DNA of 64,000 nucleotides, taken from Nanobdellota archaeon (GTDB lineage Archaea > Nanobdellota > Nanobdellia > Pacearchaeales > GW2011-AR1). The translations under genes and the position numbers were made by a program. The number at the start of each line of letters is the position of its first letter. The stretch's first letter is position 1. This document shows, in pieces, positions 28,278-41,298 of this stretch. The notes beneath the pieces are model-generated. The model was not told the DNA's origin and did not search any database. It saw nothing but the letters and a program-made list of their open reading frames with translations. The DNA lies in assembly GCA_013329055.1 (NCBI GenBank), contig DUKY01000020.1, positions 54,989 through 118,988 on the forward strand, in the 5' to 3' direction.

Positions 28278-28697
28278 TTATTTATTGTTTTTATACCCTG
28301 AATTATCCAGTTCTTGGTTTAATAATTCGTCTGCGAGTTGTTGGTATTTGTCCCATCTGCTTACGTGTTTATATTCTACAACTTTGAAATTTTCCTGTAA
28401 TTTTTGGACTTTTAAAAATAATTCCATTAATTTTGGGTTTTTTACTTTATATTCTCCTAATAATTGTTTTACTACTAATTCAGAATCTAATATGCAGGTT
28501 ATTTTGTCTTGAGTAAATTGTGAGCCTAATTCTAATGCTTTGATTAATCCTTCATATTCGGCGATATTGTTTGTTACATAGTTCCCAACTATTGAGCTAT
28601 GTTTTGTTAAAATTTTATCTTCGTCTCTAACGATTACTCCTATTGCTCCTGGTCCGGGGTTTCCTCTTGCTCCTCCATCAGAATTTGTGTAAATCAT
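28278..28697 (-). CDS. rnhA: ribonuclease HI
   Basis: Motifs are YTNSDGGARGNPGPGAIGVIV, NNIAEYEGLIKALE and ILDSELVVKQL (DED... catalytic pattern). Confidence 0.85.
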   Translation of the reverse strand: MIYTNSDGGARGNPGPGAIGVIVRDEDKILTKHSSIVGNYVTNNIAEYEGLIKALELGSQFTQDKITCILDSELVVKQLLGEYKVKNPKLMELFLKVQKLQENFKVVEYKHVSRWDKYQQLADELLNQELDNSGYKNNK

Positions 28698-28858
28698 GGC
28701 TTAAAAAATTTAAAGAATTATATAAATCTTAGTTTGTTTTTTTAAGTGGTGAAATAGTTTAAAAATGTAAAATTTTGAATTAAGGATAACTAAGAGAGTG
28801 AAAAAATTGATTCTTTTAATGCATATATGCTTAAATAATAGAATGCCAAGATTATTTT

Positions 28859-29257
28859 ATGGCAGAGCATTTGGACTATATACAAAATGCAATCAATCGT
28901 ATGGCAAATAATTCTTTTTTAATTAAAGGTTGGGCTATAACCTTCATATCGTTACTATTTATTCTTTCTGTAAAAGAGTCAAATATTTGGTATTTGATTT
29001 TAACATTTTTACCTCTATTCTGTTTTTGGGGATTAGATGCTTACTATTTAAGACAGGAAAAGTTATTTAGAAAATTATATGACCTTGTAAGAAAAGGCAA
29101 AGTAAAAGAACCATTTACAATGAACACCAAACCATTAAGAAAATATGTTCCAAGTTGGTTTGTGACTTTATTTAATTCAACAATTGTAGGATTATATTTC
29201 ACAATAATATTATTAAACTTGATTCTTATCTTGCTTTTATCATGGGGGATCATATAA
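28859..29257 (+). CDS. small 3-TM membrane protein (first gene of the TIR-like cassette)
   Basis: The hydrophobic helices are WAITFISLLFILSV, WYLILTFLPLFCFWGL and IVGLYFTIILLNLILILLLSW. A TATA-like gcttaaataata lies about 25 nt upstream. The stop codon overlaps the next start (TAATG). Confidence 0.6.
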   Translation: MAEHLDYIQNAINRMANNSFLIKGWAITFISLLFILSVKESNIWYLILTFLPLFCFWGLDAYYLRQEKLFRKLYDLVRKGKVKEPFTMNTKPLRKYVPSWFVTLFNSTIVGLYFTIILLNLILILLLSWGII

Positions 29258-29745
29258 TGGTAAGGAGAGTATTTTTTAGTTTTCATTTTGATAACGATGT
29301 TATGAGAGTTCAATTAGTAAGAAATATGGGTGCCTTAGAGGGTAATGAACCTATATCTGTGAATGATTGGGAAACGGTAAAGAGGGGAGAAGAACCATCT
29401 ATTAAGAGGTGGATTGAAAATACTATGAAAGATTGTGATTGTATTATTGTTTTAATTGGTTCAGAAACTGCAAACCGACCTTGGGTTGATTATGAGATTA
29501 GAAAAGCTTGGGAAATGAAGAAAGGAATTTTAGGGATATATATACATAACTTACCATGTCCAAGAACAGGAAAAAGTCACAAAGGACTAAACCCTTTTGA
29601 CAAAATATTTTTTACAGATGGAACTCCCTTATCTTCAAAAATAAAATGTTATGACCCAAATCCTTTAGATGCTTATAACGATATAAAAACTGGAATTCAG
29701 AGAATTGTTGAATTAGCAATACAAGAAGCAAAGCAAAGAAATTAG
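29257..29745 (+). CDS. TIR-like domain protein (DUF1863 / MTH538-type)
   Basis: RVFFSFHFDND is the beta1 motif, and CDCIIVLIGSETANRPWVDYEIRKAWE contains the conserved W-x-x-E. The ATG at 29257 overlaps the upstream TAA. The ORF track offers 29242 as an alternative start. Confidence 0.7.
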   Translation: MVRRVFFSFHFDNDVMRVQLVRNMGALEGNEPISVNDWETVKRGEEPSIKRWIENTMKDCDCIIVLIGSETANRPWVDYEIRKAWEMKKGILGIYIHNLPCPRTGKSHKGLNPFDKIFFTDGTPLSSKIKCYDPNPLDAYNDIKTGIQRIVELAIQEAKQRN

Positions 29746-29779
29746 ATATTTTTATTAAGTTTGCCTTAGTCAGTTTTTT

Positions 29780-30382
29780 ATGATAAGTTTTGATAGTATC
29801 TACGAAAATATTATTGCAGAAATAGTTGTATTCTTATTATCTCTTTTCCTATCAAAATTTTTGCCTACTTTGTTTAATAAAGAAGAAAATATAAATAAAG
29901 ACAAGGTATTTGATATGTTGAAATTAGTTATTTTTTTAACATCTATTTCAATCCTTAATTTAATATTAAATATCAGTTTTTGGGATAAACAAGAATTAAC
30001 TGTCCTATTCACTCTGCTCTCTATAGGATTTGGAATATCTTTGGTTTATGTTTATAATAATCAATGTCCTGCGTGTAAAAGGTTTATTAAAGCAAAGAAA
30101 AGAATTGATGAGAAAATTATTAAAGAATTTATTAAAGAAATCCCATATCAACCAATGAAAGTTTGGAAATATTCTAATGGAAAGATTAAGAAAAAAGAAC
30201 CATTTGGTGATAAAAAAACAAGGACTGAAAAATGGCAAACTAAGCAAGAATTTTATGAGTGTAATCATTGCAAACACCAATGGGATTCGGGGCATGTTGA
30301 TACCCCCGTATTTATAGAAAATGAATCTCACAAGGTAATAAGCACAAATGAAAAAGATCCAGATGAACCATCAATTTATTAG
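29780..30382 (+). CDS. membrane protein (about 3 TM) with a C-terminal CxxC...CxxC zinc-ribbon
   Basis: The TM stretches are IIAEIVVFLLSLFLSKFL, LVIFLTSISILNLILNI and LFTLLSIGFGISLVYVY. The zinc-ribbon cysteines are in CPACKRF...CNHCKHQW. It lies 34 nt downstream of the TIR-like gene. Confidence 0.5.
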   Translation: MISFDSIYENIIAEIVVFLLSLFLSKFLPTLFNKEENINKDKVFDMLKLVIFLTSISILNLILNISFWDKQELTVLFTLLSIGFGISLVYVYNNQCPACKRFIKAKKRIDEKIIKEFIKEIPYQPMKVWKYSNGKIKKKEPFGDKKTRTEKWQTKQEFYECNHCKHQWDSGHVDTPVFIENESHKVISTNEKDPDEPSIY

Positions 30383-30487
30383 TGTTGTCGGTTAAAAATA
30401 ACCCCCCATGCTTATAAGTTATTTTTCGGGCTAAGTCAATTAGTAAACAAAAAAGTTTTATAAATAATATTTTTATTGTGTTTTTTA

Positions 30488-31252
30488 ATGAAAAATAAAA
30501 AAATCGATAAGACTTTAGAATTTGCTATAATTGCTGAAGAAATTTATAGGAATCAACAGGGGGTTGATTTAGGTGAAGTACATTATTGTTTTGAGGGTTT
30601 ATATGGTATGAAAGGAGAATCTGGGATGGTTTTACCTTCAAAAGAAGTATTGGAATCTGTTCTTAAAAGAGATTGGTTTTCTTTGAAAGATAAAATCTTT
30701 TATACTTCACAAGGGGATGAAGTTATAAGTAAGAATGATAGTTTTATGCAAAAACCTGTGATGTTTTTGCCATGGAATGATCATGGAAAAGTTGTTGTTG
30801 TGCATGAATTGTCTCATGTTGGTTTTATGAAATTATGGCATTTTAATTATACTCTTGATGAAAGAGATGAGGGTTATAATGCTTTGAAAATTCATATTAC
30901 TCTTGATGAGGGTGTTGGGATGAAAATACCTGAATTAGAAGTTTTTAGCAAATATTATTCTAATGAAGAAATGCAAGAGGTTAGGGATACTCAATTGGAA
31001 TATAATGAAAGTAATGAATCATCTTATTTTATTGGTTCTTTAAATGCATGGAAAAATAATATTGGTGATAAATCTGGTAGAATTGATTTTAATAATGGTG
31101 TATGCTTTTATTATGTTGGTAATAATTTTATCCAAAATGTTTGGCAAGAAAAAGATACTTTGGCATCAATAGTTACTCGGCTTAGAGATAATACTCCGAG
31201 TGAAGATGAAATTTTAAATCCTGAGAAATATTTAGTAAGATTAAAAATTTAA
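30488..31252 (+). CDS. hypothetical protein with an HExxH motif (putative metallopeptidase-like)
   Basis: The motif is VVVHELSHVGF. I prefer the ATG at 30488 to the TTG at 30476 because ttttataaata is centred about 28 nt upstream of 30488. Confidence 0.45.
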   Translation: MKNKKIDKTLEFAIIAEEIYRNQQGVDLGEVHYCFEGLYGMKGESGMVLPSKEVLESVLKRDWFSLKDKIFYTSQGDEVISKNDSFMQKPVMFLPWNDHGKVVVVHELSHVGFMKLWHFNYTLDERDEGYNALKIHITLDEGVGMKIPELEVFSKYYSNEEMQEVRDTQLEYNESNESSYFIGSLNAWKNNIGDKSGRIDFNNGVCFYYVGNNFIQNVWQEKDTLASIVTRLRDNTPSEDEILNPEKYLVRLKI

Positions 31253-31524
31253 AAGTGTAAAATTTTGAAATTTTTGACGTCTTGATATTTTTCTGGTTTT
31301 ATTTCAATATTCCTTATTTGAGCGTGTTTTGGTCCTTTTTGGCATAATTCAATCATTTTGTTTACGTCATTTGCATCTCCTTCTGCGAATATTTCAATTC
31401 TTCCGTCTTCTAAGTTTCGTGTAAATCCTTTTATGTTTAATCTTTCAGCTTGTTCTTTTATAAAATCTCTAAAAAAAACTCCCTGAACTGTTCCTGTTAT
31501 ATATATTCTTACTGATTTTTTCAT
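31249..31524 (-). CDS. acyP: acylphosphatase
   Basis: The motif is VRIYITGTVQGVFFRDFIKEQAERLNIKGFTRNLEDGRIEIFAEG, and the protein is 91 aa. Confidence 0.85.
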   Translation of the reverse strand: MKKSVRIYITGTVQGVFFRDFIKEQAERLNIKGFTRNLEDGRIEIFAEGDANDVNKMIELCQKGPKHAQIRNIEIKPEKYQDVKNFKILHF

Positions 31525-31685
31525 TTTTTAAATTAAAATTAAAATTTATATTGGTAAACCCTCTTATTTAATGGAAAGAATGTTGCTTTATTATCTTTTG
31601 GGTTTGATGTCATTAAAATCTTCTGATAAATCTACTTTTTTCAAACTTCTTCAAATTATGGAATGGTGATATCTTGTTGAGTTTT

Positions 31686-32050
31686 GAAATTGTTTTTAAG
31701 ATTTAACTAAAAAGAACCCTCTGGTTCTTTTTGAATCTCCTCAAAATATTGAAAGGTGGCATCTCTTTGAGCCTTTGTGGATGCCACGTGGAAATCCCTG
31801 AATTTCTTTGTTTGAATCTTAATGCCCCACATTCTCGTAACCTCGCACGAAACTTTGTGGGTTATCGTTTCTACCACGAAGTTACTCGCCCCAAAATTAT
31901 TAAAATAATAATTTGCCTTTAGGTCGTTAAAATCTTATTGTTGGTATGCTTTTTTTTATAGTTTCTATTATGAATTTAATTGCCTTTTGTACAATTATTA
32001 AAGTATAATTTGTATTAAGCAATTAAAATCTATTGTTAGTATGCTTTTTT
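31686..32050. repeat. composite family-A repeat block with an inserted hairpin module and two tandem right arms
   Basis: The left arm is gaaattgtttttaagatttaac. The inserted modules are aaaaagaaccctctggttcttttt and gtggcatc...gatgccac. An intact cgcacgaaactttgtgg...ccacgaagtt module is present, and two ...attgttggtatgctttttt arms follow. Confidence 0.8.
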
Positions 32051-32103
32051 ATTAATAATTTTATCACCAAAAAGATAATAAATACCTATTTTTTGATAAT
32101 TTT

Positions 32104-32973
32104 ATGAAACGTCGGATTGTTTTGATCGGGGTTCCTAGTAATCTTGGTGTTGATATTTCCGGTAGTAATTTTGGTCCTGATAAAATAAGGCAATTTTTAA
32201 TTCCTGAATTAGAAAAAAATAATATTAATTTTGTTGATTTAGGTAATCTTTTTGTTCCTGAAAAAAATTTTTTAGGTGATTCTAATGAAAAGTTAAAAAA
32301 TTTAATTTCTATACAAAGAGTTTATCGGAATTTTTCAAGATTGCCTGAAAATTTTTTTGAAAAACCTAATTTCCCGATAATTCTTGGCGGGGACCATAGT
32401 ATTATTTTTGGGCATATTAAAGAATTAACTAAGAAAAAAAATGCGGGGTTAATTTGGTTAGATGCTCATGGTGATTTTAATGATGAATCTACAACTGTTA
32501 CCGGAAATATTCATGGTATGGTTTTAGGTGCTATTGCCGGAAATTCCTTAAAAAAATATTTTGATGTTGATAAGTCTTTGATTAAAGAAAAAAATATTTC
32601 AATTTTAGGGGCAAGAGATTTAGATTTGAATGAAATTTTTTTATTGAAAAATTCAGATGTTATGGTTATTTCTACTGAAAAATTAAAAGAAAATAAAATG
32701 GAGTATATTTCAAAAGCTATTAATCGTGCTAATGATGAAACGAGTGGTTATCATGTTAGTTTTGATCTTGATCTTGTTGATCCTCTTGATGCTCCGGGTG
32801 TTTCTGTTCCTGTGAATGAAGGTATTTCTAAGGAAGAATTTTCAAATATTGTTGATTTAATTGATACTGATAAATTATTGTCTGTTGATTTTGTTGAGTT
32901 AAATCCTTTAAATGATATTGATGATAAGACTGCTAAGTTGATTGTGGATTCTATTTTGAAGTTGTGTAAGTGA
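32104..32973 (+). CDS. arginase-family ureohydrolase (arginase/agmatinase)
   Basis: The Mn-binding motifs are GGDHSI, WLDAHGDFND, TGNIHGM and SFDLDLVDP. Confidence 0.82.
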   Translation: MKRRIVLIGVPSNLGVDISGSNFGPDKIRQFLIPELEKNNINFVDLGNLFVPEKNFLGDSNEKLKNLISIQRVYRNFSRLPENFFEKPNFPIILGGDHSIIFGHIKELTKKKNAGLIWLDAHGDFNDESTTVTGNIHGMVLGAIAGNSLKKYFDVDKSLIKEKNISILGARDLDLNEIFLLKNSDVMVISTEKLKENKMEYISKAINRANDETSGYHVSFDLDLVDPLDAPGVSVPVNEGISKEEFSNIVDLIDTDKLLSVDFVELNPLNDIDDKTAKLIVDSILKLCK

Positions 32974-33303
32974 ATTTTGTTTCTTTTTGGCTAAAATCTA
33001 CAATTTGATTTCTTATGTAGCGCCCACTACATGGCGAAATAAAATTATAACATTTTATCTCAAAAATAATTCAAAATTTTTTGGGGTTTTGAAATGTCTT
33101 CTTTACTAACTTTTTATATTTTATTTTTGAGGAGAATTTTTTTGGGGGTGGTCGGGGGTTTAAGGCTTCCCAGTAATTGAGTTGAAAATCGGGATTAAGA
33201 GAAGTTGTTTAAGTTCGGAGTGTAGCGTGGCTTGAGTTTAAAAAAGGGTGATTATATCAAGTTCTTTGTTTCTTTTTAGATACATATGTATCTATATTGA
33301 TAC

Positions 33304-33319
33304 GAGGGGAACACTCACG
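33304..33319. repeat. left copy of the inverted repeat bracketing the higher-GC island
   Basis: gaggggaacactcacg here; the reverse complement of 35460-35474 is gggggcacactcacg. Confidence 0.5.
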
Positions 33320-33385
33320 TAAATAAGTGAAGTATGAGCTCTTAACTTTTGTTGAATTCAATAAACATCATGTTGTTAAAAAGCA

Positions 33386-34597
33386 TTACTTCATATGTGC
33401 CAAAATATCGCCAAAGATTAAATTCTGCTGTGCTCTATATTTCCTCACTGCAAGGCCGATGGTCTGCTCGTTCGAGAAGGCTTTATTCATCCTTTTTCCC
33501 TCACTGTTAGTGCCGAATCCGGCATAGTATGCCCATGTTCCGGTGTCCATGAACGCCTGCGGCCAACAGCAGTAATCGGTCCTGTTCATTGGCGATTTGA
33601 TTATCAAGTCCCCGCAAGAAAAGCCTGACATGAACAGTGCGGGTGCACCATTTTCTCTTGCGAACTCAAGGTACTCGTCAATAGTAGACCAGTAAGGCTG
33701 AGTATGTTTTGCTGATAGGAACGCTGGACCGCCAAGCCTTTCAAGCTGTTGTTTACCAATGATGCTCAGGGACATATCTCTTCCGGTGGTATCATCCCCG
33801 TGGATGCTGAAGTGCATAGCGAGGTGCTTCTTTTTCAGCTTATCGGTAACCTTCTGGTATTCGGTGTTATAGACATATTCCTGCGGCATGTCATAACCGA
33901 GACCCTCCTTCGGGTCCGCAAGACCTATGTACTTTCCATTTTCACTTCCCTCGTAGTCAGTTAAGTGAAGGGCAGTTCTGGGATACTTCTTCATGTAACT
34001 TTCAAAGTTGTTGTGGTAGTCTGTGTAGGTCTCCATCGTCTTGAGGATGAAGCTAACCTTTTCAGGATCAGTATAGGCGAATGGTGGCATTATTGATGAG
34101 ATTGCTATGTCACTGCACCTGCAACAGCCACAGTCCTCGTCCACACACTCCATTTTCCAGTATATTGCCGCAAGGCTTTCCCAGTTTGTTGCATTGACCC
34201 CGCTTGCTGTCGGCAGGTCATCTCCTATCAGGATTATATAGGCAACATTGTCATCCATGTATAAATCATCAACGAATTTGTCTAATTCATCTATTGTCTT
34301 CCCTGGAAACTTTTTCAGCCCTGCATTCTCGATGTTTAGGTCCTTCTTTACAGATGTGAAATATTTCGAAACCGATGAAGCGACATCATCAGTATCATAA
34401 ATTCCGCCTTTTGAAACAATAATTGTCACTCTATCCTTTTCCACATTCACAGAACAATAGCAGGGATGCTCTGGAGATACAATGGAAGTAATCCAACATA
34501 CAGTGAAGCTTGCTTGTGAGAAAACCAGCATTATGGTTATAACGATGATTATGGCAACCCAAAATTTTTTTCTTTTGAGCAATTCTGGGATTTTCAT
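33386..34597 (-). CDS. membrane-anchored clan-CD (caspase/gingipain-fold)-like cysteine peptidase
   Basis: It has an N-terminal TM. A candidate His-Cys dyad follows hydrophobic strands: LAMHFSIHGDD and ALFMSGFSCGDL, about 60 residues apart. The fold assignment was made by eye. Confidence 0.45.
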   Translation of the reverse strand: MKIPELLKRKKFWVAIIIVITIMLVFSQASFTVCWITSIVSPEHPCYCSVNVEKDRVTIIVSKGGIYDTDDVASSVSKYFTSVKKDLNIENAGLKKFPGKTIDELDKFVDDLYMDDNVAYIILIGDDLPTASGVNATNWESLAAIYWKMECVDEDCGCCRCSDIAISSIMPPFAYTDPEKVSFILKTMETYTDYHNNFESYMKKYPRTALHLTDYEGSENGKYIGLADPKEGLGYDMPQEYVYNTEYQKVTDKLKKKHLAMHFSIHGDDTTGRDMSLSIIGKQQLERLGGPAFLSAKHTQPYWSTIDEYLEFARENGAPALFMSGFSCGDLIIKSPMNRTDYCCWPQAFMDTGTWAYYAGFGTNSEGKRMNKAFSNEQTIGLAVRKYRAQQNLIFGDILAHMK

Positions 34598-35397
34598 GTT
34601 TTAGTCCCTATTTTCATATCTGCGACAGTATCACGACATGTTTCCTTAATTTTAGGGATTTCAATCATTTCGCAGATAGATTCATCTCCTTTCATTGAGG
34701 CAACTTCTGAATAGCAAGATGCCCGAATTTCTATATCTAGAATTTCTCTGCATATCTGAGGGTCAAGCTTGTTCCATGCAATATATCTATAACAGTGGTC
34801 CTTGTAAGATTCAATGGAAATTTTGTTGCATATTGAAGTGTCGTTTTCTATATTTGCGATCTTGCTATAGCACCAGTCTCTCGGATAGACATTTTCGATT
34901 TCATTACAGATGAACATATGCTTGCGTGAAATGTTAATAGGGAATTTTATCTCGCCTAAGACAATGTCTAAGAAGTATACCTCTATGCTGTGACCAACCA
35001 TACCCTTAGTTTCTGAGTCATATTTTTCATACTGGAATTTTGCCCGTAATTCTGGATTTCGTAACTTTTCATAGACTGTAGGATCCTCGGGAGCTGCTGC
35101 AATCACCGCTTTCATACATTCACTGATGCGGTAATCACTAGGCATTCCGCTTACGCAAAGAACAGGATCATGTCTTGCTACAGCAATTTCTTGCTGACAG
35201 GATGCTCTTTCATAGGGATTTTGAATCTGCATGCATGCAGGATTCACAGTTTCCCAAGCGGACTTGGAACAGGTTATTGATGTGGAACATTGGATACGGT
35301 AAATCAATGTCGGCATATTATAAATAAATATAATAATAACAACCAGAATTATTAAAAAAATAATCCAAAAGATATTTTTTGGATATTTATTTGTCAT
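34594..35397 (-). CDS. membrane-anchored cysteine-rich repeat protein
   Basis: It has an N-terminal TM (IFWIIFLIILVVIIIFIY). C-x(n)-C spacings repeat (DPVLCV...ISECM, DTSICNKI...DHCYRYIA, DPQICREI...ASCYSEVA, DESICEMI...ETCRD). It overlaps the downstream gene by 4 nt. Confidence 0.55.
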   Translation of the reverse strand: MTNKYPKNIFWIIFLIILVVIIIFIYNMPTLIYRIQCSTSITCSKSAWETVNPACMQIQNPYERASCQQEIAVARHDPVLCVSGMPSDYRISECMKAVIAAAPEDPTVYEKLRNPELRAKFQYEKYDSETKGMVGHSIEVYFLDIVLGEIKFPINISRKHMFICNEIENVYPRDWCYSKIANIENDTSICNKISIESYKDHCYRYIAWNKLDPQICREILDIEIRASCYSEVASMKGDESICEMIEIPKIKETCRDTVADMKIGTKT

Positions 35398-35459
35398 TAT
35401 CCAGATTACAGTTTAACAAGTTTATTAATATTACTATCCCTTCTTGAGTGTAGTTCAAT

Positions 35460-35474
35460 CGTGAGTGTGCCCCC
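35460..35474. repeat. right copy of the inverted repeat bracketing the higher-GC island
   Basis: cgtgagtgtgccccc; see the feature at 33304-33319. Confidence 0.5.
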
Positions 35475-35535
35475 ATAGTCATAATTGCGTATAACATCAA
35501 TTAAATAAACAAAATTATCCAGAAATATTTTAATT

Positions 35536-36120
35536 TTAAATCCCTCGATTATCTAATTCATTGTTTACAACTGCTACAACTTGTGAAGCAAAATACATTT
35601 TGGGTCCAATTGAAATGGGTGTTAAAGATTTTTTTAATCTCTTTAATTCTTTTCTTGGGAATCCTTCATGGTCTCCGATAATGAATGCACATTCTTTTTG
35701 TATTTTTGCTTCTCTTAAAGATTCTCCGCCTTTTTCTAAGATAAAACATTCAACATCTTTATCCAATAATTCTTCTATAACGTGTAAGAAACTTTTTTTT
35801 TCTATGAAACATCCGGGCAAAACTTCTGTTTTTTCTCCGGCTTTATATTTGTATAATATTCTTTTTATAAGATTTCCGACATCTTTTTTTGATATTTCAA
35901 GTTCTGGTGTTACTCTAATTTCTATATGTTTTGGTGGGTCTGGCATTCCATAAAATATAAAGTGGAAGTTTACATCCTCTCTAAATCCGTGTGACAAGAA
36001 TACTCCTTGTATAAATGAGTGAATTGCAATATCCATCCTTCCTGCTTTCATTAAATTTCCATCAGAAAGTGCTTTTCCGCTTGTAACTGCACTATTTGAA
36101 AAATATATTATATGACGCAT
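35536..36120 (-). CDS. trmY: tRNA (pseudouridine54-N1)-methyltransferase TrmY (SPOUT, DUF358)
   Basis: MRHIIYFSN...GRMDIAIHSFIQGVFLSHGFREDVNFHFIFYGMPDPPKHIEI matches the TrmY family pattern. Confidence 0.78.
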   Translation of the reverse strand: MRHIIYFSNSAVTSGKALSDGNLMKAGRMDIAIHSFIQGVFLSHGFREDVNFHFIFYGMPDPPKHIEIRVTPELEISKKDVGNLIKRILYKYKAGEKTEVLPGCFIEKKSFLHVIEELLDKDVECFILEKGGESLREAKIQKECAFIIGDHEGFPRKELKRLKKSLTPISIGPKMYFASQVVAVVNNELDNRGI

Positions 36121-36152
36121 ATTTTATTAAATAAAATTTTACTTATAAACAT

Positions 36153-36186
36153 TGTTTATCCTGTTTATCCTGTTTATCCTGTTTTT
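36153..36186. repeat. 9-bp tandem repeat (tgtttatcc, about 3.5 copies) in the trmY upstream region
   Basis: Read directly from the sequence: tgtttatcctgtttatcctgtttatcctgttttt. Confidence 0.8.
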
Positions 36187-36212
36187 ATTTTCTATTGAAT
36201 TTGAATTTTCAT

Positions 36213-36768
36213 AAAGAATACAAGATTTTAACAAATCCCCTTTTTTCTTTGTTTGAATTTTATTCCCCACATTCTCATAACCTCGCACGAAACTTTGTGT
36301 AGGTAAAAAAGCGTATGAAAATTTGATTTTTGAGATTCCCACTTCAAGTTCAAGCTAAAGCTTGAAGACCCGCCCTTAAAAATATTTGAATTTCCAATAA
36401 GCTAATCAAAAATTAAATTTTTATTATTAAACACACTTTTTTATTTCTTTGCTTGAATTTTAATCTCCCACATTCCCCAAATTATTACAAAAGTAATAAT
36501 TTGCCTTTAAGCTATAGAAAAAATAATATTTTTTCTAAAAAGTAAACTAAACCAACGTTAATTCAATTAGTTTACTTCGTTAAAATCTTATTGTTGGTAT
36601 GCTTTTTTTATTATTTGCGAAGTTACTCTACTCCTTGTGAAAACTTGCTTTAAATCAAGAAAAAATTTTGATTTATTGGCAATTTTCAAAGTTACTCGCC
36701 CCTTTATTGCTTTGCAATATCTCACCTTTAAGTTTCATTAAAATCTTATTGTTGGTATGCTTTTTTTA
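36213..36768. repeat. about 550 bp mosaic of family-A modules with a nested family-B copy (36321-36414)
   Basis: It contains ...cgcacgaaactttgtg interrupted by other modules, and the B core cccacttcaagttcaagctaaagcttgaagacccgccc. The two-hairpin module tagagaa.../agtaaacta...tagtttact matches 7855-7921. Two ...attgttggtatgcttttttt arms are present. Confidence 0.8.
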
Positions 36769-36826
36769 CTTTTAAGAAGTTTGGGAATTGAATAAAAAAA
36801 TTTTAATGGGTCATTTTTATCAAAAG

Positions 36827-36837
36827 ATATTTAAATG
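36827..36837 (+). promoter_or_regulatory. TATA-box-like element
   Basis: atatttaaatg is centred about 26 nt upstream of the ATG at 36858. Confidence 0.45.
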
Positions 36838-36857
36838 AATTTTATTAAGATATCATT

Positions 36858-37613
36858 ATGAAAATGAAATTTGGTGCAATTTTTAGTTTTTTACTAACGA
36901 TATTAGTTTTATCTGTCGTTACTGCTTCAATGATAATTCCAGTTAATGATCGGGCAAAGGAAAATTCCCCTGCTCCATCAAAGTCACCAGTTATTGGAGA
37001 AAATTGGAATTTAGAAAGAGTAGATTTTATTCATTATGCAAAACCTGATAGTATTGGAAAACCAACAAAGGCTAATACTTGTTATAAGTTAATGGGTGTA
37101 AAATGGAAATCTTTACCTGTAAATTATATAATTAATCCAACAAATCAAGATGGTTTGTCTTATGATTTTGTTGTAAACACTATCAGTAGTTCTGCAGAAA
37201 ATTGGGATAGTCAGACTTCATCAGAATTATTTAATAATAATTATGTTGTTGATTATAATTCTCAATATGGTGTTCAGGATTATAAAAATTCTATTGTTTT
37301 TGGAAATTATCCCGAGGGTAATGTTATAGGTGTTACTTCTGTATGGTATACCCGAGTTGGAAAAGAAATTGTAGAATTTGATATGTTATTGAATGATAAT
37401 TATCAATGGGGTGATGCAACTGTTGATTCTTCTTTAATGGATTTAGAAAATATTATGACTCATGAATTAGGTCATTCTGTTGGTTTAGCTGATATTTATA
37501 CTGATAGTTGTTCAAGCGTTACAATGTATGGTTATTCTAATTATGGGGATATTGAAAAAAGAAGTTTAGAGAATCCGGATATTTTAGGTTTACAAAGTAT
37601 GTATGGAATATAA
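36858..37613 (+). CDS. secreted matrixin-like (M10) zinc metalloprotease
   Basis: The signal/TM is FGAIFSFLLTILVLSVVTA. The zinc motif is HELGHSVGLAD, followed by the Met-turn-like SVTMYGY. Confidence 0.8.
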   Translation: MKMKFGAIFSFLLTILVLSVVTASMIIPVNDRAKENSPAPSKSPVIGENWNLERVDFIHYAKPDSIGKPTKANTCYKLMGVKWKSLPVNYIINPTNQDGLSYDFVVNTISSSAENWDSQTSSELFNNNYVVDYNSQYGVQDYKNSIVFGNYPEGNVIGVTSVWYTRVGKEIVEFDMLLNDNYQWGDATVDSSLMDLENIMTHELGHSVGLADIYTDSCSSVTMYGYSNYGDIEKRSLENPDILGLQSMYGI

Positions 37614-37616
37614 AAA

Positions 37617-37931
37617 TTATTTTTTTTCCCATCTATCTTTATCTCTTCCATAACACTTATTCATTTTCTTTTCCCAGGCTTTATCTAAATCGATGTTATG
37701 AGAATTTGCCATACAAATCATTGCAAAGATAACGTCTGTAATTTCCTCTCCAATCTCTGCAGTATCTTCTTTTGATTTTTTGATTCGTGGTCCATATCTA
37801 TTATTTATCTCTCTTGAAAGTTCCCCTAATTCTTCAACTGCTTGTGCAATAATTGCTAATGGTGGGAAATATCCAATTTTATATTGTGAAATCCATTCAT
37901 CAACTTGTTTTTGAATATCTTTAAGTGTCAT
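37617..37931 (-). CDS. MazG-like nucleotide pyrophosphohydrolase
   Basis: The motifs are AVEELGELSREI and EIGEEITDVIFAMICMAN (EExxE/D metal motifs); 104 aa. Confidence 0.78.
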   Translation of the reverse strand: MTLKDIQKQVDEWISQYKIGYFPPLAIIAQAVEELGELSREINNRYGPRIKKSKEDTAEIGEEITDVIFAMICMANSHNIDLDKAWEKKMNKCYGRDKDRWEKK

Positions 37932-37966
37932 ACTTAAGAAAAATAATTTTGCTTTATTAAATGTTT

Positions 37967-39316
37967 TTAAACAAGACCTTGATCTATCATTGCATCAGCA
38001 ACTTTAGTAAATCCTGCAATATTTGCTCCGGCAACGTAATTATTTGAATATCCGTATTGTTTTGAAGCATCTAAACATGTTTTATGAATATTTTTCATGA
38101 TATCTTTTAGACGTCTGTCAACTTCATTTTTATCCCATGAAAGTCGCATGCTATTTTGACTCATCTCAAGTCCTGAAACACTAACTCCTCCGGCATTTGC
38201 TGCTTTTCCTGGTCCGTATAAAAGATTATTATCTAAGAAAATTTTAACTGCTTCAGGAGTTGAAGGCATATTTGCTCCTTCACTTACTAATTGAACTTTA
38301 TTTTTAATTAAATTTAATGCATCCTGTTCATTAATTTCATTTTGTGTAGCACTTGGAAATGCACAATCTGCCTTATGATCCCATAATGGATTATAAGTTT
38401 CGTTTTCTTTTTTTTGTGTAAATGTTGCATTAGGATATTTTGTTGCATATTCGCTGATTCTTCCTCTTTTAACATTTTTTAATTCTTTTATAAATTGAAG
38501 TTTTTCTTTATTAATTCCTTCTGGGTCATAGATATATCCTGAAGAATCAGAAACTGTAATAACTTTTCCTTTAAGTTCAATTATTTTTTCAATAGTAAAC
38601 TGTGCTACATTTCCTGATCCGGAAACTAAACAAGTTTTATCTTCTAATGTTTCTTTTTTTGTATTTAGCATTTCAGAAGCAAAATAAACATTACCATAAC
38701 CTGTTGCTTCTGGTCTAATAAGGCTTCCTCCCCATTTTAATCCCTTGCCTGTAAAAACCCCGGTAAATTCATTATTTAGTTTTTTATACATTCCAAAAAG
38801 ATAACCAATTTCTCTTGCTCCAACTCCAATATCTCCTGCAGGTACATCTGTGTCTGCTCCGATGTGTCGATATAATTCACTCATAAAACTTTGACAGAAT
38901 CTCATAACTTCTCTATCTGATTTTCCTTTTGGATCAAAATCTGATCCTCCTTTTCCTCCTCCCATTGGCAATGTTGTTAAAGCATTTTTGAATACTTGTT
39001 CAAAAGCAAGAAATTTTAATATACTTAGATTCACTGACGGATGGAATCGCAAACCTCCTTTGTAAGGACCGATTGCACTATTCATTTGGATTCTATATCC
39101 TCTGTTTATCTGAATTTCTCCTTGATCATCAATCCATGGAACTCTAAATTGTATAGTCCTTTCCGGTTCAATCATTCTTTCTAATATTTTTTGAGAGGTG
39201 TAAATTGGATTTTTTGCAATTACTGGTTTAATGCTTTCAACTACTTCAAAAACTGCCTGATGAAACTCTTTTTCATTCGGGTCTCTTATTTTAATGTAAT
39301 CAATAATTGAATTCAT
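37967..39316 (-). CDS. gdhA: glutamate dehydrogenase (NADP-type hexameric family)
   Basis: KGGLRFHPSVNLSILKFLAFEQVFKNALTTLPMGGGKGGSDFDPKGKS is nearly identical to the bacterial GdhA signature. The GSGNVAQ Rossmann motif is present. Confidence 0.93.
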   Translation of the reverse strand: MNSIIDYIKIRDPNEKEFHQAVFEVVESIKPVIAKNPIYTSQKILERMIEPERTIQFRVPWIDDQGEIQINRGYRIQMNSAIGPYKGGLRFHPSVNLSILKFLAFEQVFKNALTTLPMGGGKGGSDFDPKGKSDREVMRFCQSFMSELYRHIGADTDVPAGDIGVGAREIGYLFGMYKKLNNEFTGVFTGKGLKWGGSLIRPEATGYGNVYFASEMLNTKKETLEDKTCLVSGSGNVAQFTIEKIIELKGKVITVSDSSGYIYDPEGINKEKLQFIKELKNVKRGRISEYATKYPNATFTQKKENETYNPLWDHKADCAFPSATQNEINEQDALNLIKNKVQLVSEGANMPSTPEAVKIFLDNNLLYGPGKAANAGGVSVSGLEMSQNSMRLSWDKNEVDRRLKDIMKNIHKTCLDASKQYGYSNNYVAGANIAGFTKVADAMIDQGLV

Positions 39317-39494
39317 TTTAATTTTTTTAAACTATTTAGAATTATTTGTGTAATAAATAAAGTATTACTCATCTTAATATTTTTTATATCCTTTAACTTT
39401 ATAAAGATTATTGTGAATTATTCTATTGGTTGTATCATTATTATTTTTTTAATCACATAATAATCTTTATATTAATTGGATTCATTAATTTAAA

Positions 39495-40400
39495 ATGAAG
39501 AATTTAATTAATAGAATTAAAAGACAATTTTCTTCTCAATTACTTAGGAAAGAACATATCTCTTATCTTTTAGGATGGAACAAATTACTTGGGAATAAAA
39601 AAAAGGTATTGTATAATGCAATGGGGCCTGATTTAAGTACTGTTCTATTATTTGCAAATCCCACTGAGATAATTGGTGTTGATCCAAAAGGTTTTTTTAG
39701 AGATACAGAAGAGTATGTTTTGAAATTTTGGGATTTTATTGATATTAAACCAATTGTTAAGTCAGGAGATTCTTGGTATCATTCTGAAAAAAATATTGCC
39801 AAGTCTTACAAACCTACTGAAGAAGAATTATATTTTTTTAAAGAAGATTTAAACTTTAGAAAAAATTATGGATATTGGGATATTACTCATATTCGACGAT
39901 GGGATCTTGATCGTTTATTGATGATTGAATTTAAAAAATTAAATGTTGATCCTGATTCGATTAAGTTTAATTCAAATCCTTTTCAAATTTCATTTGAGTG
40001 GGCATATCCAAAAGAGAAAGCAAAAGAAAGAAAATTAATTTATCTTCCAGGAACACTTGATAAAGTTTTTGATGGAATCAAAGAGATTGATTGTTATTAT
40101 CAAAAGTCATTGCCGAATCCAAGTGATACTTTAACATATTTAAATTTAGTATTGCCGAATCTTTCTTCAAAAAGTGTTGTGGCTTTAGGTTATATTTTAA
40201 ATGATCGTCCTTATGGATGGAAAAATAATGAGCAATTTTCCCAAGATGTGAAAAAATTATTAGGGGATAGATTCTATTATGAGGAAGGAAATAAAAAATT
40301 AAATAATTTAATTGATAAAATTCCCGATGACGTTAATGATCCTTACAATCAATATGGTATGAAATTACATATTTTTAGAAGTAACTATGTAGAATTATAA
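39495..40400 (+). CDS. hypothetical protein
   Basis: 301-aa ORF with a TATA-like ctttatatta about 27 nt upstream. A possible Rossmann-like VLYNAMGPD...IIGVD is too weak to call. Confidence 0.5.
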   Translation: MKNLINRIKRQFSSQLLRKEHISYLLGWNKLLGNKKKVLYNAMGPDLSTVLLFANPTEIIGVDPKGFFRDTEEYVLKFWDFIDIKPIVKSGDSWYHSEKNIAKSYKPTEEELYFFKEDLNFRKNYGYWDITHIRRWDLDRLLMIEFKKLNVDPDSIKFNSNPFQISFEWAYPKEKAKERKLIYLPGTLDKVFDGIKEIDCYYQKSLPNPSDTLTYLNLVLPNLSSKSVVALGYILNDRPYGWKNNEQFSQDVKKLLGDRFYYEEGNKKLNNLIDKIPDDVNDPYNQYGMKLHIFRSNYVEL

Positions 40401-40407
40401 ATAATTT

Positions 40408-41298
40408 TTATCCTCTTATTGGTTGCATTACAAATTCACCTTTTGCAAAAATAGATTCGTTATTGATTATTTTATAAATTCCGATAAAACGTTTTTTGCA
40501 AAAAACTGTGACTTTTTCTCCATTCTTAAAATTTTGTTCTTCAATTAAGTCGTCATATTTTATTGGCTTACCTGTTAAAATATTTTTTTCACTTGTTGAT
40601 TTTATTTTTATTGTTGGATATAACTCTGTGATTATTTCCCCTGGGATAATCATTTCTCGTAATAATTTTTCATTTCCTTGTTTATATTCTTCGATTGCTT
40701 TTTCTAAATCATATAATTTTATTGCCGGATATTTTGAATCATTTTCTGAAAATATTCCTGCTTTTGTTCTTCTTAATTCCAGCATATGTGCTCCGATGTT
40801 TAATTCTTTTCCAAGATCATCAATTAATTTTCTAATGTAAGTTCCTCCTTGGCATTCAACAGAAAATAAGAAATCTTTTCCATTTTTTTCCAATAGATCA
40901 AACTTTATAATTTCTCTTTGCCGTTCCTGTCTTTTGACTCTTGATTTTAACGGTGGAATTTGATTTATCTTTCCTAAAAATTTTTTTTGGATTTCTTTTT
41001 GAATTTCTTCTAATGAAATATCTTCATGAAGTCGCATAATTCCAACATAAGTTTTATTTTCTCCTAAAAAATAACCTGTTAATTTGCAGGCTCTGTTTAA
41101 TGCTATTGGTAAAACTCCTGTAACTTTTGGGTCTAGTGTTCCGAAATGCGAAGTTTTTCTTAAATTTAAATTTCGTCTTACAAATGCTGAAATGTTGAAA
41201 GATGTTGGTCCTGATGATTTGTCAACATTTATTATTCCGAATTCTAAAAGTTCTTGAATGGATTTAGTTTCTTTAATTTCTTCCAGATTAATATTCAT
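40408..41298 (-). CDS. cbf5: H/ACA RNP pseudouridine synthase Cbf5 (TruB family with PUA domain)
   Basis: HFGTLDPKVTGVLPIAL contains the catalytic Asp motif. GGTYIRKLIDDLG is present, and the C-terminus is PUA-like. Confidence 0.9.
   Translation of the reverse strand: MNINLEEIKETKSIQELLEFGIINVDKSSGPTSFNISAFVRRNLNLRKTSHFGTLDPKVTGVLPIALNRACKLTGYFLGENKTYVGIMRLHEDISLEEIQKEIQKKFLGKINQIPPLKSRVKRQERQREIIKFDLLEKNGKDFLFSVECQGGTYIRKLIDDLGKELNIGAHMLELRRTKAGIFSENDSKYPAIKLYDLEKAIEEYKQGNEKLLREMIIPGEIITELYPTIKIKSTSEKNILTGKPIKYDDLIEEQNFKNGEKVTVFCKKRFIGIYKIINNESIFAKGEFVMQPIRG

What the first reader, a model, noticed from the sequence alone, without database searches (positions are those of the whole stretch)
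33304..35474. Two-gene island with visibly higher G+C, bracketed by an imperfect terminal inverted repeat: probable horizontally acquired cassette
Seen in the sequence: I counted 33/60 G+C for 33541-33600 and 23/60 for 34741-34800 inside the island, against 12/60 for 36841-36900 in a neighbouring native gene. Codon choice shifts visibly (many GCC, CTG, CGG-type codons). The island (ORFs 33386..34597 and 34594..35397, overlapping by 4 nt) is bounded by GGGGAACACTCACG (33306-33319) and CGTGAGTGTGCCCCC (35460-35474). These form an inverted pair with the G-run outermost, the geometry of transposon ends. The region 33130-33300 to the left is also atypically G-rich. No transposase lies inside. Inference: this is a recent acquisition from a higher-GC donor, possibly as a non-autonomous mobile cassette.
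Basis: partly seen in the sequence, partly recalled or inferred. Interest (0 to 1): 0.6.

Follow-up and report, generated by a model that had tools for sequence, protein, structure and literature searches.

The report
Acquired peptidase cassette with decayed transposon ends
A tiny groundwater (DPANN) archaeon picked up a two-gene cassette from another such archaeon. It encodes a membrane-anchored gingipain-like protease and a cysteine-rich partner, and its inverted end repeats are worn-down ends of a so far undescribed family of gene-carrying mobile elements.

Summary
The two overlapping genes (33386-35397, minus strand) have 41% G+C against 28.6% for the genome. Third-codon-position G+C is 0.51 and 0.35 against a genome mean of 0.18. 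The 13/14 inverted repeat is real and occurs nowhere else in the genome.

The acquisition reading is supported. Eight same-family genomes share the gene order TrmY-like gene, acylphosphatase, RNase H. In three of them only 36-66 nt separate the first two genes. Here 4 kb sit at that spot.

The nearest homologues (71-76% identity) lie on 42-43% G+C contigs; one of these contigs is DPANN-like, the other was not typed. Seven independent assemblies reproduce both junctions.

The inverted 14-mers are not simple transposon tips. They are an inner box of long, multi-box terminal inverted repeats. I found seven other left/right end pairs in other DPANN-type contigs, each with different cargo (0.8-4.9 kb) and no transposase. 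The window's ends are decayed, so this copy is probably immobile.

The first gene product (ORF1) folds like gingipain RgpB, with an invariant His-Gly and a conserved Cys. It matches no Pfam family. The second (ORF2) is a disulfide-rich helical repeat protein.

The enzyme that moves these elements, any target duplication and the biochemical function remain unknown.

The parts
33386..34597 (-). ORF1, 403 aa. It has an N-terminal membrane anchor and an ectodomain with a gingipain (RgpB)-like two-subdomain alpha/beta fold. Candidate catalytic residues are His266-Gly267 and Cys328; Cys343-Cys344-Trp345 are invariant.
   Evidence: ORF. AF2 model pLDDT 89. Foldseek top hits 1cvr and 4ief, E 3e-9, probability 1.0, TM about 0.5; the next hits are insignificant. 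Conservation. No Pfam, NCBIfam or PADLOC hit.
34594..35397 (-). ORF2, 267 aa. It has an N-terminal membrane anchor and an all-helical repeat ectodomain with 12 invariant Cys. It is translationally coupled to ORF1 through an ATGA overlap at 34594-34597.
   Evidence: invariant Cys. AF2 pLDDT 86.5. No significant PDB fold or sequence match. It sits next to ORF1 homologues in L012, L013, L014, L016 and G053.
35421..35436 (-). A+T-rich TATA-like box (TAGTAATATTAATAAAC on the minus strand) about 30 nt upstream of the ORF2 start. This is the probable archaeal promoter of the cassette.
   Evidence: Sequence. The same stretch is conserved upstream of the ORF2 homologues in L013 and L014, and after the left end in G060:C45. 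Promoter function is inferred.
35446..35510 (-). Decayed left end (LE) of the element. Box 1 reads GTTATACGC, and one fused box A/B reads AATTATGACTATGGGGGCACACTCACGATTG.
   Evidence: The 19-mer GGGGGCACACTCACGATTG is identical in 15 or more LE copies elsewhere. The LE profile hits only this place in the genome, E 1.5e-4. Alignments.
33165..33330 (+). Decayed right end (RE), read from outside inwards on the plus strand.
   Evidence: The left arm with its inner flank matches the RE of L023 (24 nt, 92%) and of L020 (19 nt, 95%). Box spacing of about 115-125 nt matches L020 and L023. The RE profile score is weak, E 1.1, so the outer limit is tentative.
35536..36120 (-). Native flanking gene: PF04013 RNA methyltransferase (TrmY-like). 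It is a core gene of the family.
   Evidence: Pfam label. Found at 62-71% identity in same-family genomes and present in 35 of 40 relatives.
31249..31524 (-). Native backbone gene: acylphosphatase. In relatives it lies directly after the TrmY-like gene.
   Evidence: The gap between the two genes is 36-66 nt in L063, L064 and L065, and about 4.0 kb here.
32104..32973 (+). Arginase-family gene. It lies outside the element but inside the same variable spot. It has host-like composition and no close orthologue in relatives, so it is a separate accessory gene.
   Evidence: Best identity in 40 relatives is 34%, apart from a single 40% match covering only 94 aa. G+C 0.26-0.29.

Best explanation
The segment from about 33165 to 35510 is one horizontally acquired copy of a cargo-carrying, transposase-less element. 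It has long terminal inverted repeats and now sits as a decaying relic.

Shown:
- It lies directly downstream of the native TrmY-like gene, at a spot that is empty in several related genomes and holds other genes in others.
- Its cargo keeps the base composition of its nearest relatives, which lie on 42-43% G+C contigs; one of these contigs is DPANN-like (Pace-/Woesearchaeota type).
- The two 14-mers are 'box B' of a left and a right end. In better-preserved copies each end carries, from outside inwards, GTTAAAATC, then (A/G)TTATGAC..GGGGCACAC, then a spacer, then AAGGGGCACACTCACG.
- The same end pairs bracket seven other, unrelated cargos in other genomes.

Inferred:
- The element was moved in trans by an unidentified transposase or recombinase that binds the repeated GGGGCACAC boxes.
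- The copy is now immobile, because box A is lost from the right end, the two left-end boxes are fused, and the end sequences have drifted towards A+T.

Cargo function (inferred from fold and conservation). ORF1 is an extracellular, membrane-tethered cysteine endopeptidase of the caspase/gingipain fold group (MEROPS clan CD), with a His266/Cys328 dyad. ORF2 is a disulfide-stabilised helical-repeat partner made in step with it through the ATGA overlap. It may act as a substrate-recruiting, stabilising or inhibitory subunit. For a cell-surface-dependent symbiont, the pair plausibly cuts host or environmental surface proteins.
For: Composition.

Insertion at a variable spot:
- The backbone order w40408-41298 / TrmY-like / acylphosphatase / RNase H holds in 8 family genomes.
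- The TrmY-like to acylphosphatase gap is 36-66 nt in three of them. Other genes fill it in L067, L070 and L068.
- ORF1 is absent from 58 of 59 relatives.

Donor-like relatives:
- The window's ORF1 is sister to L014 and L013 (support 100/97).
- The G+C profile along the cassette equals that of L013 and L014, with uniform 63-83% nucleotide identity.
- The permease next to the pair in L013 is 79-83% identical to Pacearchaeota and Woesearchaeota proteins.

End family:
- The exact 19-mer occurs in 15 or more left-end copies.
- Left/right pairs occur in L020 (4.9 kb), L023 (3.3), L028 (2.4), L033 (0.8), L081 (1.65), L082 (1.4) and L083 (3.3).
- Their cargos are unrelated and no transposase domain was found: TIR-domain protein, ABC transporter with a TrmB regulator, RecB/Cas4-RNase H nuclease, HNH endonuclease, QueC-like protein, membrane proteins.
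- Distribution is patchy and low-copy: 6 of 151 relatives of G060 and 0 of 59 relatives of G000.
- The left-end profile hits only the window's right arm in this genome.

Assembly: 7 contigs from at least 5 samples span both junctions at 99.97-100% identity. Contig naming styles suggest several different assemblers; this is my reading of the names, not a tool result.

Proteins.
Against: - No target-site duplication could be defined.
- No autonomous copy or cognate transposase was found.
- The window's right end is recognised only weakly by the RE profile (E 1.1), and its outer part is assigned by eye.
- The nearest cargo homologue is only about 77% identical in DNA, so the direct donor is unsampled and 'recent' is relative.
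- One same-order genome (G053) carries the pair at 56% identity. Identity alone therefore does not exclude ancient presence followed by many losses.
- ORF1 matches no peptidase family by sequence.
- 7 of 46 family members have Ser in place of Cys328.
Confidence: 0.72

Rival explanations
1. The cassette was acquired horizontally, but the ends played no part. On this view the left-end fragment simply came along as upstream DNA of ORF2 from the donor. The 14-nt left arm would be a chance or unrelated match, and entry would have been by illegitimate or homologous recombination at a hotspot.
For: - The left-end fragment plus promoter is also linked to ORF2 in L013, so it could be plain 5' flanking DNA.
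- RE profile score is weak (E 1.1).
- No target duplication was found.
- The spot also holds unrelated accessory genes without such ends.
Against: - A G+C-rich 13/14 inverted match arose in 1 of 3000 random placements.
- The left arm carries the RE-specific inner flank (ACGTAAA.AAGT), not the LE one (ACGATTG).
- The distance from the box-1-like motif to box B fits other right ends.
- Seven other loci show the same left-end, cargo, right-end layout.
Confidence: 0.18
2. The conserved ~115-nt sequence is a site for a tyrosine recombinase (Xer- or integron-like), and the cassette is a recombination cassette rather than a transposon.
For: - An XerA-like recombinase lies just outside the left end in L020 (NF040815, 211.8 bits; curated cutoff 220).
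- In G060:C45 two left-end fragments overlap in the box-B core, lie inverted and are 20.5 kb apart, as expected after inversion at that core.
- Neighbouring genes are variable and defence-like.
Against: - Excision or integration needs direct, not inverted, sites. Eight loci show inverted ends.
- Only 1 of about 20 loci has a recombinase nearby.
- The recombinase scores best as XerA and falls below the integron-integrase cutoff (192.6 against 265).
Confidence: 0.07
3. The island is native, or an assembly or binning artefact. Its high G+C would then reflect amino-acid content or a foreign contig joined by mistake.
For: - One other high-G+C gene in the genome (C15:59824-63363) owes its G+C to codon position 2, not position 3.
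- Reads could not be inspected.
Against: - GC3 is 0.51 and 0.35 against 0.18.
- Identical junctions appear in 7 assemblies from several samples.
- The native flanks lie on the same contigs.
- The site is empty in relatives.
Confidence: 0.03

Closest known systems
Mobile insertion cassettes (MICs): transposase-less passenger-gene units bounded by IS- or Tn3-type inverted repeats, in the Bacillus cereus group and Xanthomonas (PMC6542083, PMC4337579; listed by title, not read)
   Same: Inverted ends bracket one to a few passenger genes, with no transposase inside. Different cargos sit between the same ends. Mobilisation in trans is presumed.
   Different: - Here the ends are 115-165 nt long with several boxes (two GGGGCACAC boxes plus GTTAAAATC).
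- The left and right ends are asymmetric.
- No parent IS or transposon, and no transposase, is known.
- The hosts are DPANN archaea.
- Target duplication is unresolved.
- I had no IS reference library, so the ends were not compared with known IS families.
Gingipain R (RgpB), peptidase family C25, clan CD (PDB 1cvr, 4ief)
   Same: Best and only significant structural match: E 3e-9, TM about 0.5 over about 400 columns. It shares the two alpha/beta subdomains. A His-Gly follows one strand and a Cys follows a later strand, as in clan CD enzymes (clan CD topology is from my own knowledge).
   Different: - 14% identity.
- No Pfam C25 hit for any of 46 family members.
- No Ig-like or secretion-signal C-terminal domain.
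- N-terminal membrane anchor instead.
- An extra Cys-rich insert (CVDEDCGCCRCSD) and an invariant CCW motif.
- The family is tiny: 114 representatives among 1.84 billion.
Integron gene cassettes
   Same: Small promoter-proximal units with varied cargo next to conserved recombination sequences. A tyrosine recombinase lies beside one copy (L020).
   Different: The ends are inverted, not direct attC sites. The cassettes carry their own promoter and up to five genes. No IntI-type integrase was found.
MITEs and small hairpin repeats of DPANN genomes
   Same: Non-autonomous and bounded by inverted repeats.
   Different: These elements carry 0.8-4.9 kb of genes and occur at roughly one copy per genome. 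They are not short, multi-copy and non-coding.

Membership tests
Horizontally acquired genomic islet | Composition and codon usage deviate from the host genome | tested here: met
   G+C 0.41 against 0.286. GC3 0.506 and 0.348 against 0.176 (SD 0.042), ranks 2 and 8 of 853 ORFs.
Horizontally acquired genomic islet | Absent from the syntenic position in related genomes | tested here: met
   The TrmY-like and acylphosphatase genes are adjacent (36-66 nt) in L063-L065 and 4 kb apart here. ORF1 is absent from 58 of 59 relatives. No same-genus genome was available.
Horizontally acquired genomic islet | Closest homologues lie outside the host's close relatives | tested here: met
   Sister to L014 and L013 (76% and 71% identity; support 100/97) on 42-43% G+C contigs. 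The same-order G053 clade branches outside.
Transposase-less cargo element with terminal inverted repeats (MIC-like) | Terminal inverted repeats shared by a family of elements | tested here: met
   Seven other left/right end pairs with aligned boxes. The window's right arm is a left end at E 1.5e-4. The window's left arm is a right end only weakly, E 1.1 plus an RE-type flank.
Transposase-less cargo element with terminal inverted repeats (MIC-like) | Different passenger genes between the same ends, with no transposase inside | tested here: met
   Eight different cargos and no transposase or integrase Pfam domain. Not every small cargo ORF was scanned.
Transposase-less cargo element with terminal inverted repeats (MIC-like) | Target-site duplication at the insertion | tested here: inconclusive
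   The outer limits of the ends are unclear. The sequences outside GTTAAAATC are themselves partly conserved and inverted, and no consistent direct repeat was seen.
Transposase-less cargo element with terminal inverted repeats (MIC-like) | A cognate autonomous element or transposase with the same ends | tested here: not met
   None in the roughly 25 loci examined. None in IMG/VR. Only an XerA-like recombinase lies beside one copy.
MITE | Short (under about 0.8 kb), non-coding and multi-copy | tested here: not met
   About 2.35 kb with two intact genes, and a single copy in the genome.
Integron cassette | Direct attC sites and an IntI integrase platform | tested here: not met
   The ends are inverted. 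The only nearby recombinase scores as XerA and falls below the IntI cutoff. No attC model was available.
Peptidase family C25 (gingipain), clan CD | Sequence match to the family profile (Pfam Peptidase_C25) | tested here: not met
   No peptidase family (hence no Peptidase_C25) among the Pfam hits at E up to 1 for ORF1 and up to 0.01 for the 46 members. Nothing in the PDB profile search.
Peptidase family C25 (gingipain), clan CD | Caspase/gingipain alpha/beta fold | tested here: met
   Foldseek hits on 1cvr and 4ief, E 3e-9 to 3e-8, probability 1.0, TM 0.49-0.53. The model has pLDDT 89.
Peptidase family C25 (gingipain), clan CD | Catalytic His (in a His-Gly motif) and Cys at the ends of successive strands | tested here: inconclusive
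   His266-Gly267 is invariant after strand 258-264. Cys328 follows strand 320-326 in 39 of 46 members, with Ser in 7. I had no access to model coordinates or the residue-level superposition.

The most novel reading that the evidence does not exclude
The left and right ends define a new family of archaeal cargo-mobilising elements. On this reading they have long, asymmetric, multi-box terminal repeats and are moved in trans by an unrecognised enzyme. They would shuttle defence, transport and cell-surface genes between DPANN archaea. The window's cassette would be a fossil copy that delivered a new, sequence-isolated branch of clan CD surface proteases.
Probability: 0.4. Interest if true: 0.7.

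Novelty: new variant of a known kind. Interest (0 to 1): 0.55.

Why it matters
DPANN archaea have tiny genomes, and how they gain accessory genes is poorly understood.

This is a clean case of gene gain. The insertion is datable only in relative terms. It shows an empty site in relatives, donor-like composition and recognisable mobile-element ends.

The same ends bracket defence genes, transporters and nucleases elsewhere. That points to a shared vehicle for gene flow among these symbionts, and the enzyme that moves it is still to be found.

The cargo is a rare, unannotated family of gingipain-fold surface proteases with a fixed cysteine-rich partner. It is a concrete candidate for host-surface or protein-scavenging activity in an episymbiont, and it can be tested by ordinary expression and assay.

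Tried and rejected
- Structured RNA. Rfam gave no hit on the island or on 15 element-bearing loci. There were no tRNA or tmRNA genes. The conserved 114-nt left end folds no better than shuffled sequence (z +1.2 and +2.0), and RNAalifold found only a short hairpin. I rejected a structured RNA gene.
- Conserved chromosomal site (dif-like or ncRNA attachment site). Rejected because the element occurs in only 6 of 151 relatives of G060 and in 0 of 59 relatives of G000.
- Integron attC reading of the direct repeats around L013 and L014. I did not pursue it: the ends are inverted in eight loci and no IntI was found.
- Other copies in the genome. Genome-wide searches for the 14-mers and boxes found only chance hits inside coding DNA at C15:29661 and C16:3285.
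- Exact-match hits L018, L019, L021, L022, L025, L029, L037 and L039 are chance occurrences of the 19-mer inside coding DNA with no element context, two of them in named bacterial MAGs.
- The apparent 60-nt deletion in contig L006 is a 10-N scaffold gap.
- Mosaic origin of ORF1 and ORF2, suggested by their different G+C. Rejected: the same G+C gradient exists in L013 and L014, and identity is uniform.
- Defence role. No PADLOC match for either protein.
- Sequence-level PDB searches gave nothing for either profile. The ORF2 fold search gave only generic helical repeats.
- IMG/VR holds no copy of the 19-mer.
- Target duplications could not be resolved.
Full report
**Observation**

The window is G000:C18:54989-118988 of a 1.19-Mb, 26-contig genome with 28.6% G+C.

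- Two minus-strand ORFs, 33386..34597 (403 aa, ORF1) and 34594..35397 (267 aa, ORF2), overlap by ATGA.
- Their G+C is 0.41. 300-nt windows peak at 0.48 and fall to 0.26-0.29 outside.
- Among 2-kb windows of the genome (mean 0.286, SD 0.029), only the rRNA operon and a few other places are as G+C-rich.
- At codon level the signal is stronger. GC3 is 0.506 for ORF1 and 0.348 for ORF2, against 0.176 (SD 0.042) for 853 ORFs. These are ranks 2 and 8, and ORF1 has the highest overall G+C of all.
- The inverted pair GGGGAACACTCACG (33306-33319) and CGTGAGTGTGCCCCC (35460-35474) exists and matches at 13 of 14 positions. It is unique in the genome.
- In 3000 random placements of equal-sized flanks, a G+C-rich match of that quality appeared once. 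Matches of any composition appeared 104 times.

**Not an artefact**

The exact ORF1 product lies on seven contigs from at least five samples, whose naming styles suggest several assemblers. All carry the same neighbours (PF04013 gene, ORF2, ORF1, arginase-family gene) at 99.97-100% identity to the window. An apparent deletion in one contig is a 10-N scaffold gap.

**Inserted relative to the family backbone**

ORF1 has no homologue in 35 same-family genomes. Among 24 same-order genomes only one (G053) has it, with copies at 56% and about 37-46% identity.

The flanking PF04013 (TrmY-like) gene is a core gene, at 62-71% identity within the family. I fetched its surroundings from eight family genomes and compared all window proteins with them. 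This gave one conserved order: w43037-43456, w42180-42839, w40408-41298, TrmY-like, then RNase H (w28278-28697) and w26774-28246.

The short gap between the TrmY-like gene and RNase H in relatives holds the 91-aa acylphosphatase, which in the window lies at 31249-31524.

- In L063, L064 and L065 the TrmY-like and acylphosphatase genes are 36-66 nt apart.
- In L067 and L070 a membrane-protein and HTH pair sits there, and in L068 a 251-aa ORF.
- In the window about 4.0 kb sit there: the island plus an arginase-family gene with host-like composition and no close orthologue in relatives.

The spot is therefore a variable hotspot, and the island is an insertion into it. The synteny found here fits that.

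**Where it came from**

- ORF1 belongs to a small family with no Pfam domain: 50 hits in the 90% clusters, and 114 representatives among 1.84 billion.
- ORF2 homologues (10 hits) lie next to ORF1 homologues wherever context is available. In L013 and L014 they share the same 4-nt overlap.
- In a maximum-likelihood tree the window's ORF1 is sister to L014 and L013 (76% and 71% identity; support 100/97). The G053-type clade, from the host's own order, branches further out.
- L013 and L014 have 42-43% G+C overall, and there the pair matches its flanks.
- The G+C profile along the cassette, including the 0.5 peak near the ORF1 3' end, is the same in the window, L013 and L014. Nucleotide identity is even, at 63-83%. 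The window's copy has therefore kept donor-like composition and is not a mosaic.
- The permease next to the pair in L013 is 79-83% identical to proteins named Pacearchaeota and Woesearchaeota. The donor-like lineage is thus another DPANN archaeon of somewhat higher G+C. The direct donor is unsampled.

**What the inverted repeat is**

The right arm with four further bases (GGGGGCACACTCACGATTG) is identical upstream of the ORF2 homologue in L013. Exact-match scans found it in 19 metagenome and 5 genome loci. Eight of these are chance hits in coding DNA with no element context; two of them lie in named bacterial MAGs. The rest share a conserved sequence of about 115 nt:

(T)GTTAAAATC-AATTATGACTACGGGGCACACA-(A-rich spacer)-AACGGAAGGGGGCACACTCACGATTGGGCTACGCCCTTGAyGGTTTACTAAATGGAATCGGGGGC

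- It is not an RNA family, a tRNA or a stable fold.
- It is sporadic and at about one copy per genome: 6 of 151 relatives of G060 and 0 of 59 relatives of the window's genome. It is therefore not a fixed chromosomal site.
- The window's left arm, together with its inner flank, matches a second conserved sequence. This lies in inverted orientation 3.3 kb (L023) and 4.9 kb (L020) downstream of the first.
- Aligning both ends shows true terminal inverted repeats with the same boxes in the same order. The right end has a spacer about 45 nt longer and its own inner flank, ACGTAAAAAGTAG.
- Further pairs occur in L028, L033, L081, L082 and L083.
- The eight cargos differ:
  - ORF2-ORF1 (this window);
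  - HTH, zinc-ribbon and TIR-domain proteins;
  - an ABC transporter with a TrmB regulator;
  - a Cas4/RecB-RNase H nuclease;
  - an HNH endonuclease;
  - a lipoprotein-like 500-aa protein;
  - a membrane protein;
  - a set with a QueC-like protein.
- None has a transposase or integrase domain.

In the window both ends are worn.

- The left end keeps a box-1-like GTTATACGC and a single fused box A/B. Its inner part has drifted towards A+T: GGGCTACGCCC has become AACTACACTC.
- The right end keeps box B with the RE-type flank and a box-1-like GTTGAAAATC at the expected distance, but no box A.
- A left-end profile finds only this place in the genome (E 1.5e-4). A right-end profile finds the left arm only weakly (E 1.1).

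The 14-mers are an inner box, however, and the element extends to about 33165 and about 35510. This also accounts for the G-rich stretch at 33130-33300.

**Unresolved**

I could not define target duplications, because the sequence outside GTTAAAATC is itself partly conserved and inverted.

No autonomous copy was found. An XerA-like tyrosine recombinase lies just outside the left end in L020. In G060:C45 two left-end fragments overlap at box B and lie inverted, 20.5 kb apart. This keeps a site-specific recombination reading alive at low odds.

**Cargo function**

- ORF1 has an N-terminal helix, taken as a membrane anchor. Its confident model (pLDDT 89) has as its only significant PDB neighbours gingipain R structures 1cvr and 4ief (E 3e-9, probability 1.0, TM about 0.5).
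- His266-Gly267 after strand 258-264 is invariant. Cys328 after strand 320-326 is present in 39 of 46 members, with Ser in 7. Cys343-Cys344-Trp345 is invariant.
- That order fits the His/Cys dyad of clan CD peptidases (my knowledge of the clan). However, no member matches Pfam C25, and I could not inspect the superposition. I call it gingipain-fold and probably a cysteine peptidase, not a C25 member.
- ORF2 is a membrane-anchored, all-helical repeat protein with 12 invariant cysteines and no informative structural neighbour.
- Neither protein matches defence models.
- In an Aenigmatarchaeota contig the pair lies among beta-helix, NHL-repeat and subtilase genes, which fits a cell-surface or secreted role.
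- Extracellular gingipain-type peptidases have been discussed for sediment archaea. Such papers came up in a literature search by title only and were not read.

**Verdict**

It is an ordinary kind of event (gene gain on a small element). It is documented unusually cleanly, and it leads to a family of cargo-carrying elements and a protease family that appear to be undescribed.

Noticed in passing
G000:C15:6940-7045 (outside the window): A second, more decayed right-end-type relic: GCTGTTAAACTC...GAACGAAGTGA...CGTCCATTCTAATGAACGTAGTGATACATCGAGGACAA...AGGGAC. The RE profile scores it at E 1.3e-3. It lies between a small two-gene pair (81 and 90 aa) and A+T-rich ORFs of 199 and 593 aa. This suggests an older insertion of the same element family in this genome.
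   Followed up: partly
G060:C45:1092-1164 and 21649-21720 (loci L059, L060): Two left-end fragments (positions 1-74 and 43-114) overlap at box B and lie inverted, 20.5 kb apart. This is the layout expected after inversion at the box-B core. The left fragment is followed by a promoter like that of ORF2 and a truncated ORF2-like N-terminus (MSNKYQIKRDW...), then a gene that looks like deoxyhypusine synthase (assigned by eye).
   Followed up: partly
window 28697-33000 and 36139-40408: Relative to eight family genomes, the window carries several other insertions in the same backbone. One set is the TIR/ThsB cassette, 200-aa and 258-aa ORFs and an arginase-family gene. Another is an M10 peptidase and glutamate dehydrogenase between the TrmY-like gene and w40408-41298; a MazG gene also sits there, though four relatives carry a MazG homologue (59-84% identity) nearby. 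All have host-like G+C.
   Followed up: partly
G000:C2:2900-17000 (outside the window): A run of ORFs with GC3 of 0.29-0.54 and G+C of 0.32-0.43. No rRNA or other Rfam family was found in the parts scanned. This is either another foreign region or a mis-binned part of the contig.
   Followed up: no
L013:2110-2245 and 4400-4540; L014:1130-1215 and 3260-3316; L016 flanks: The closest ORF2-ORF1 homologues are flanked by other repeats: direct repeats of about 130 nt in L013, a shared TCGGTCTGCTAACAGC in L014, and an inverted GGCTCGCC in L016. These were not explained.
   Followed up: no
L020:71-886: An XerA-like tyrosine recombinase (NF040815, 211.8 bits, just under the cutoff) lies directly outside the left end of the 4.9-kb TIR-domain cargo element.
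   Followed up: partly
L038, L040 (record titles: Methanosarcinales MAGs): Left-end copies at 80-91% identity occur on contigs binned as Methanosarcinales. L040 shares neighbouring genes (SNase-like and HTH proteins) with the Woesearchaeota locus L036. This means either transfer across phyla or DPANN contigs binned with their hosts.
   Followed up: no
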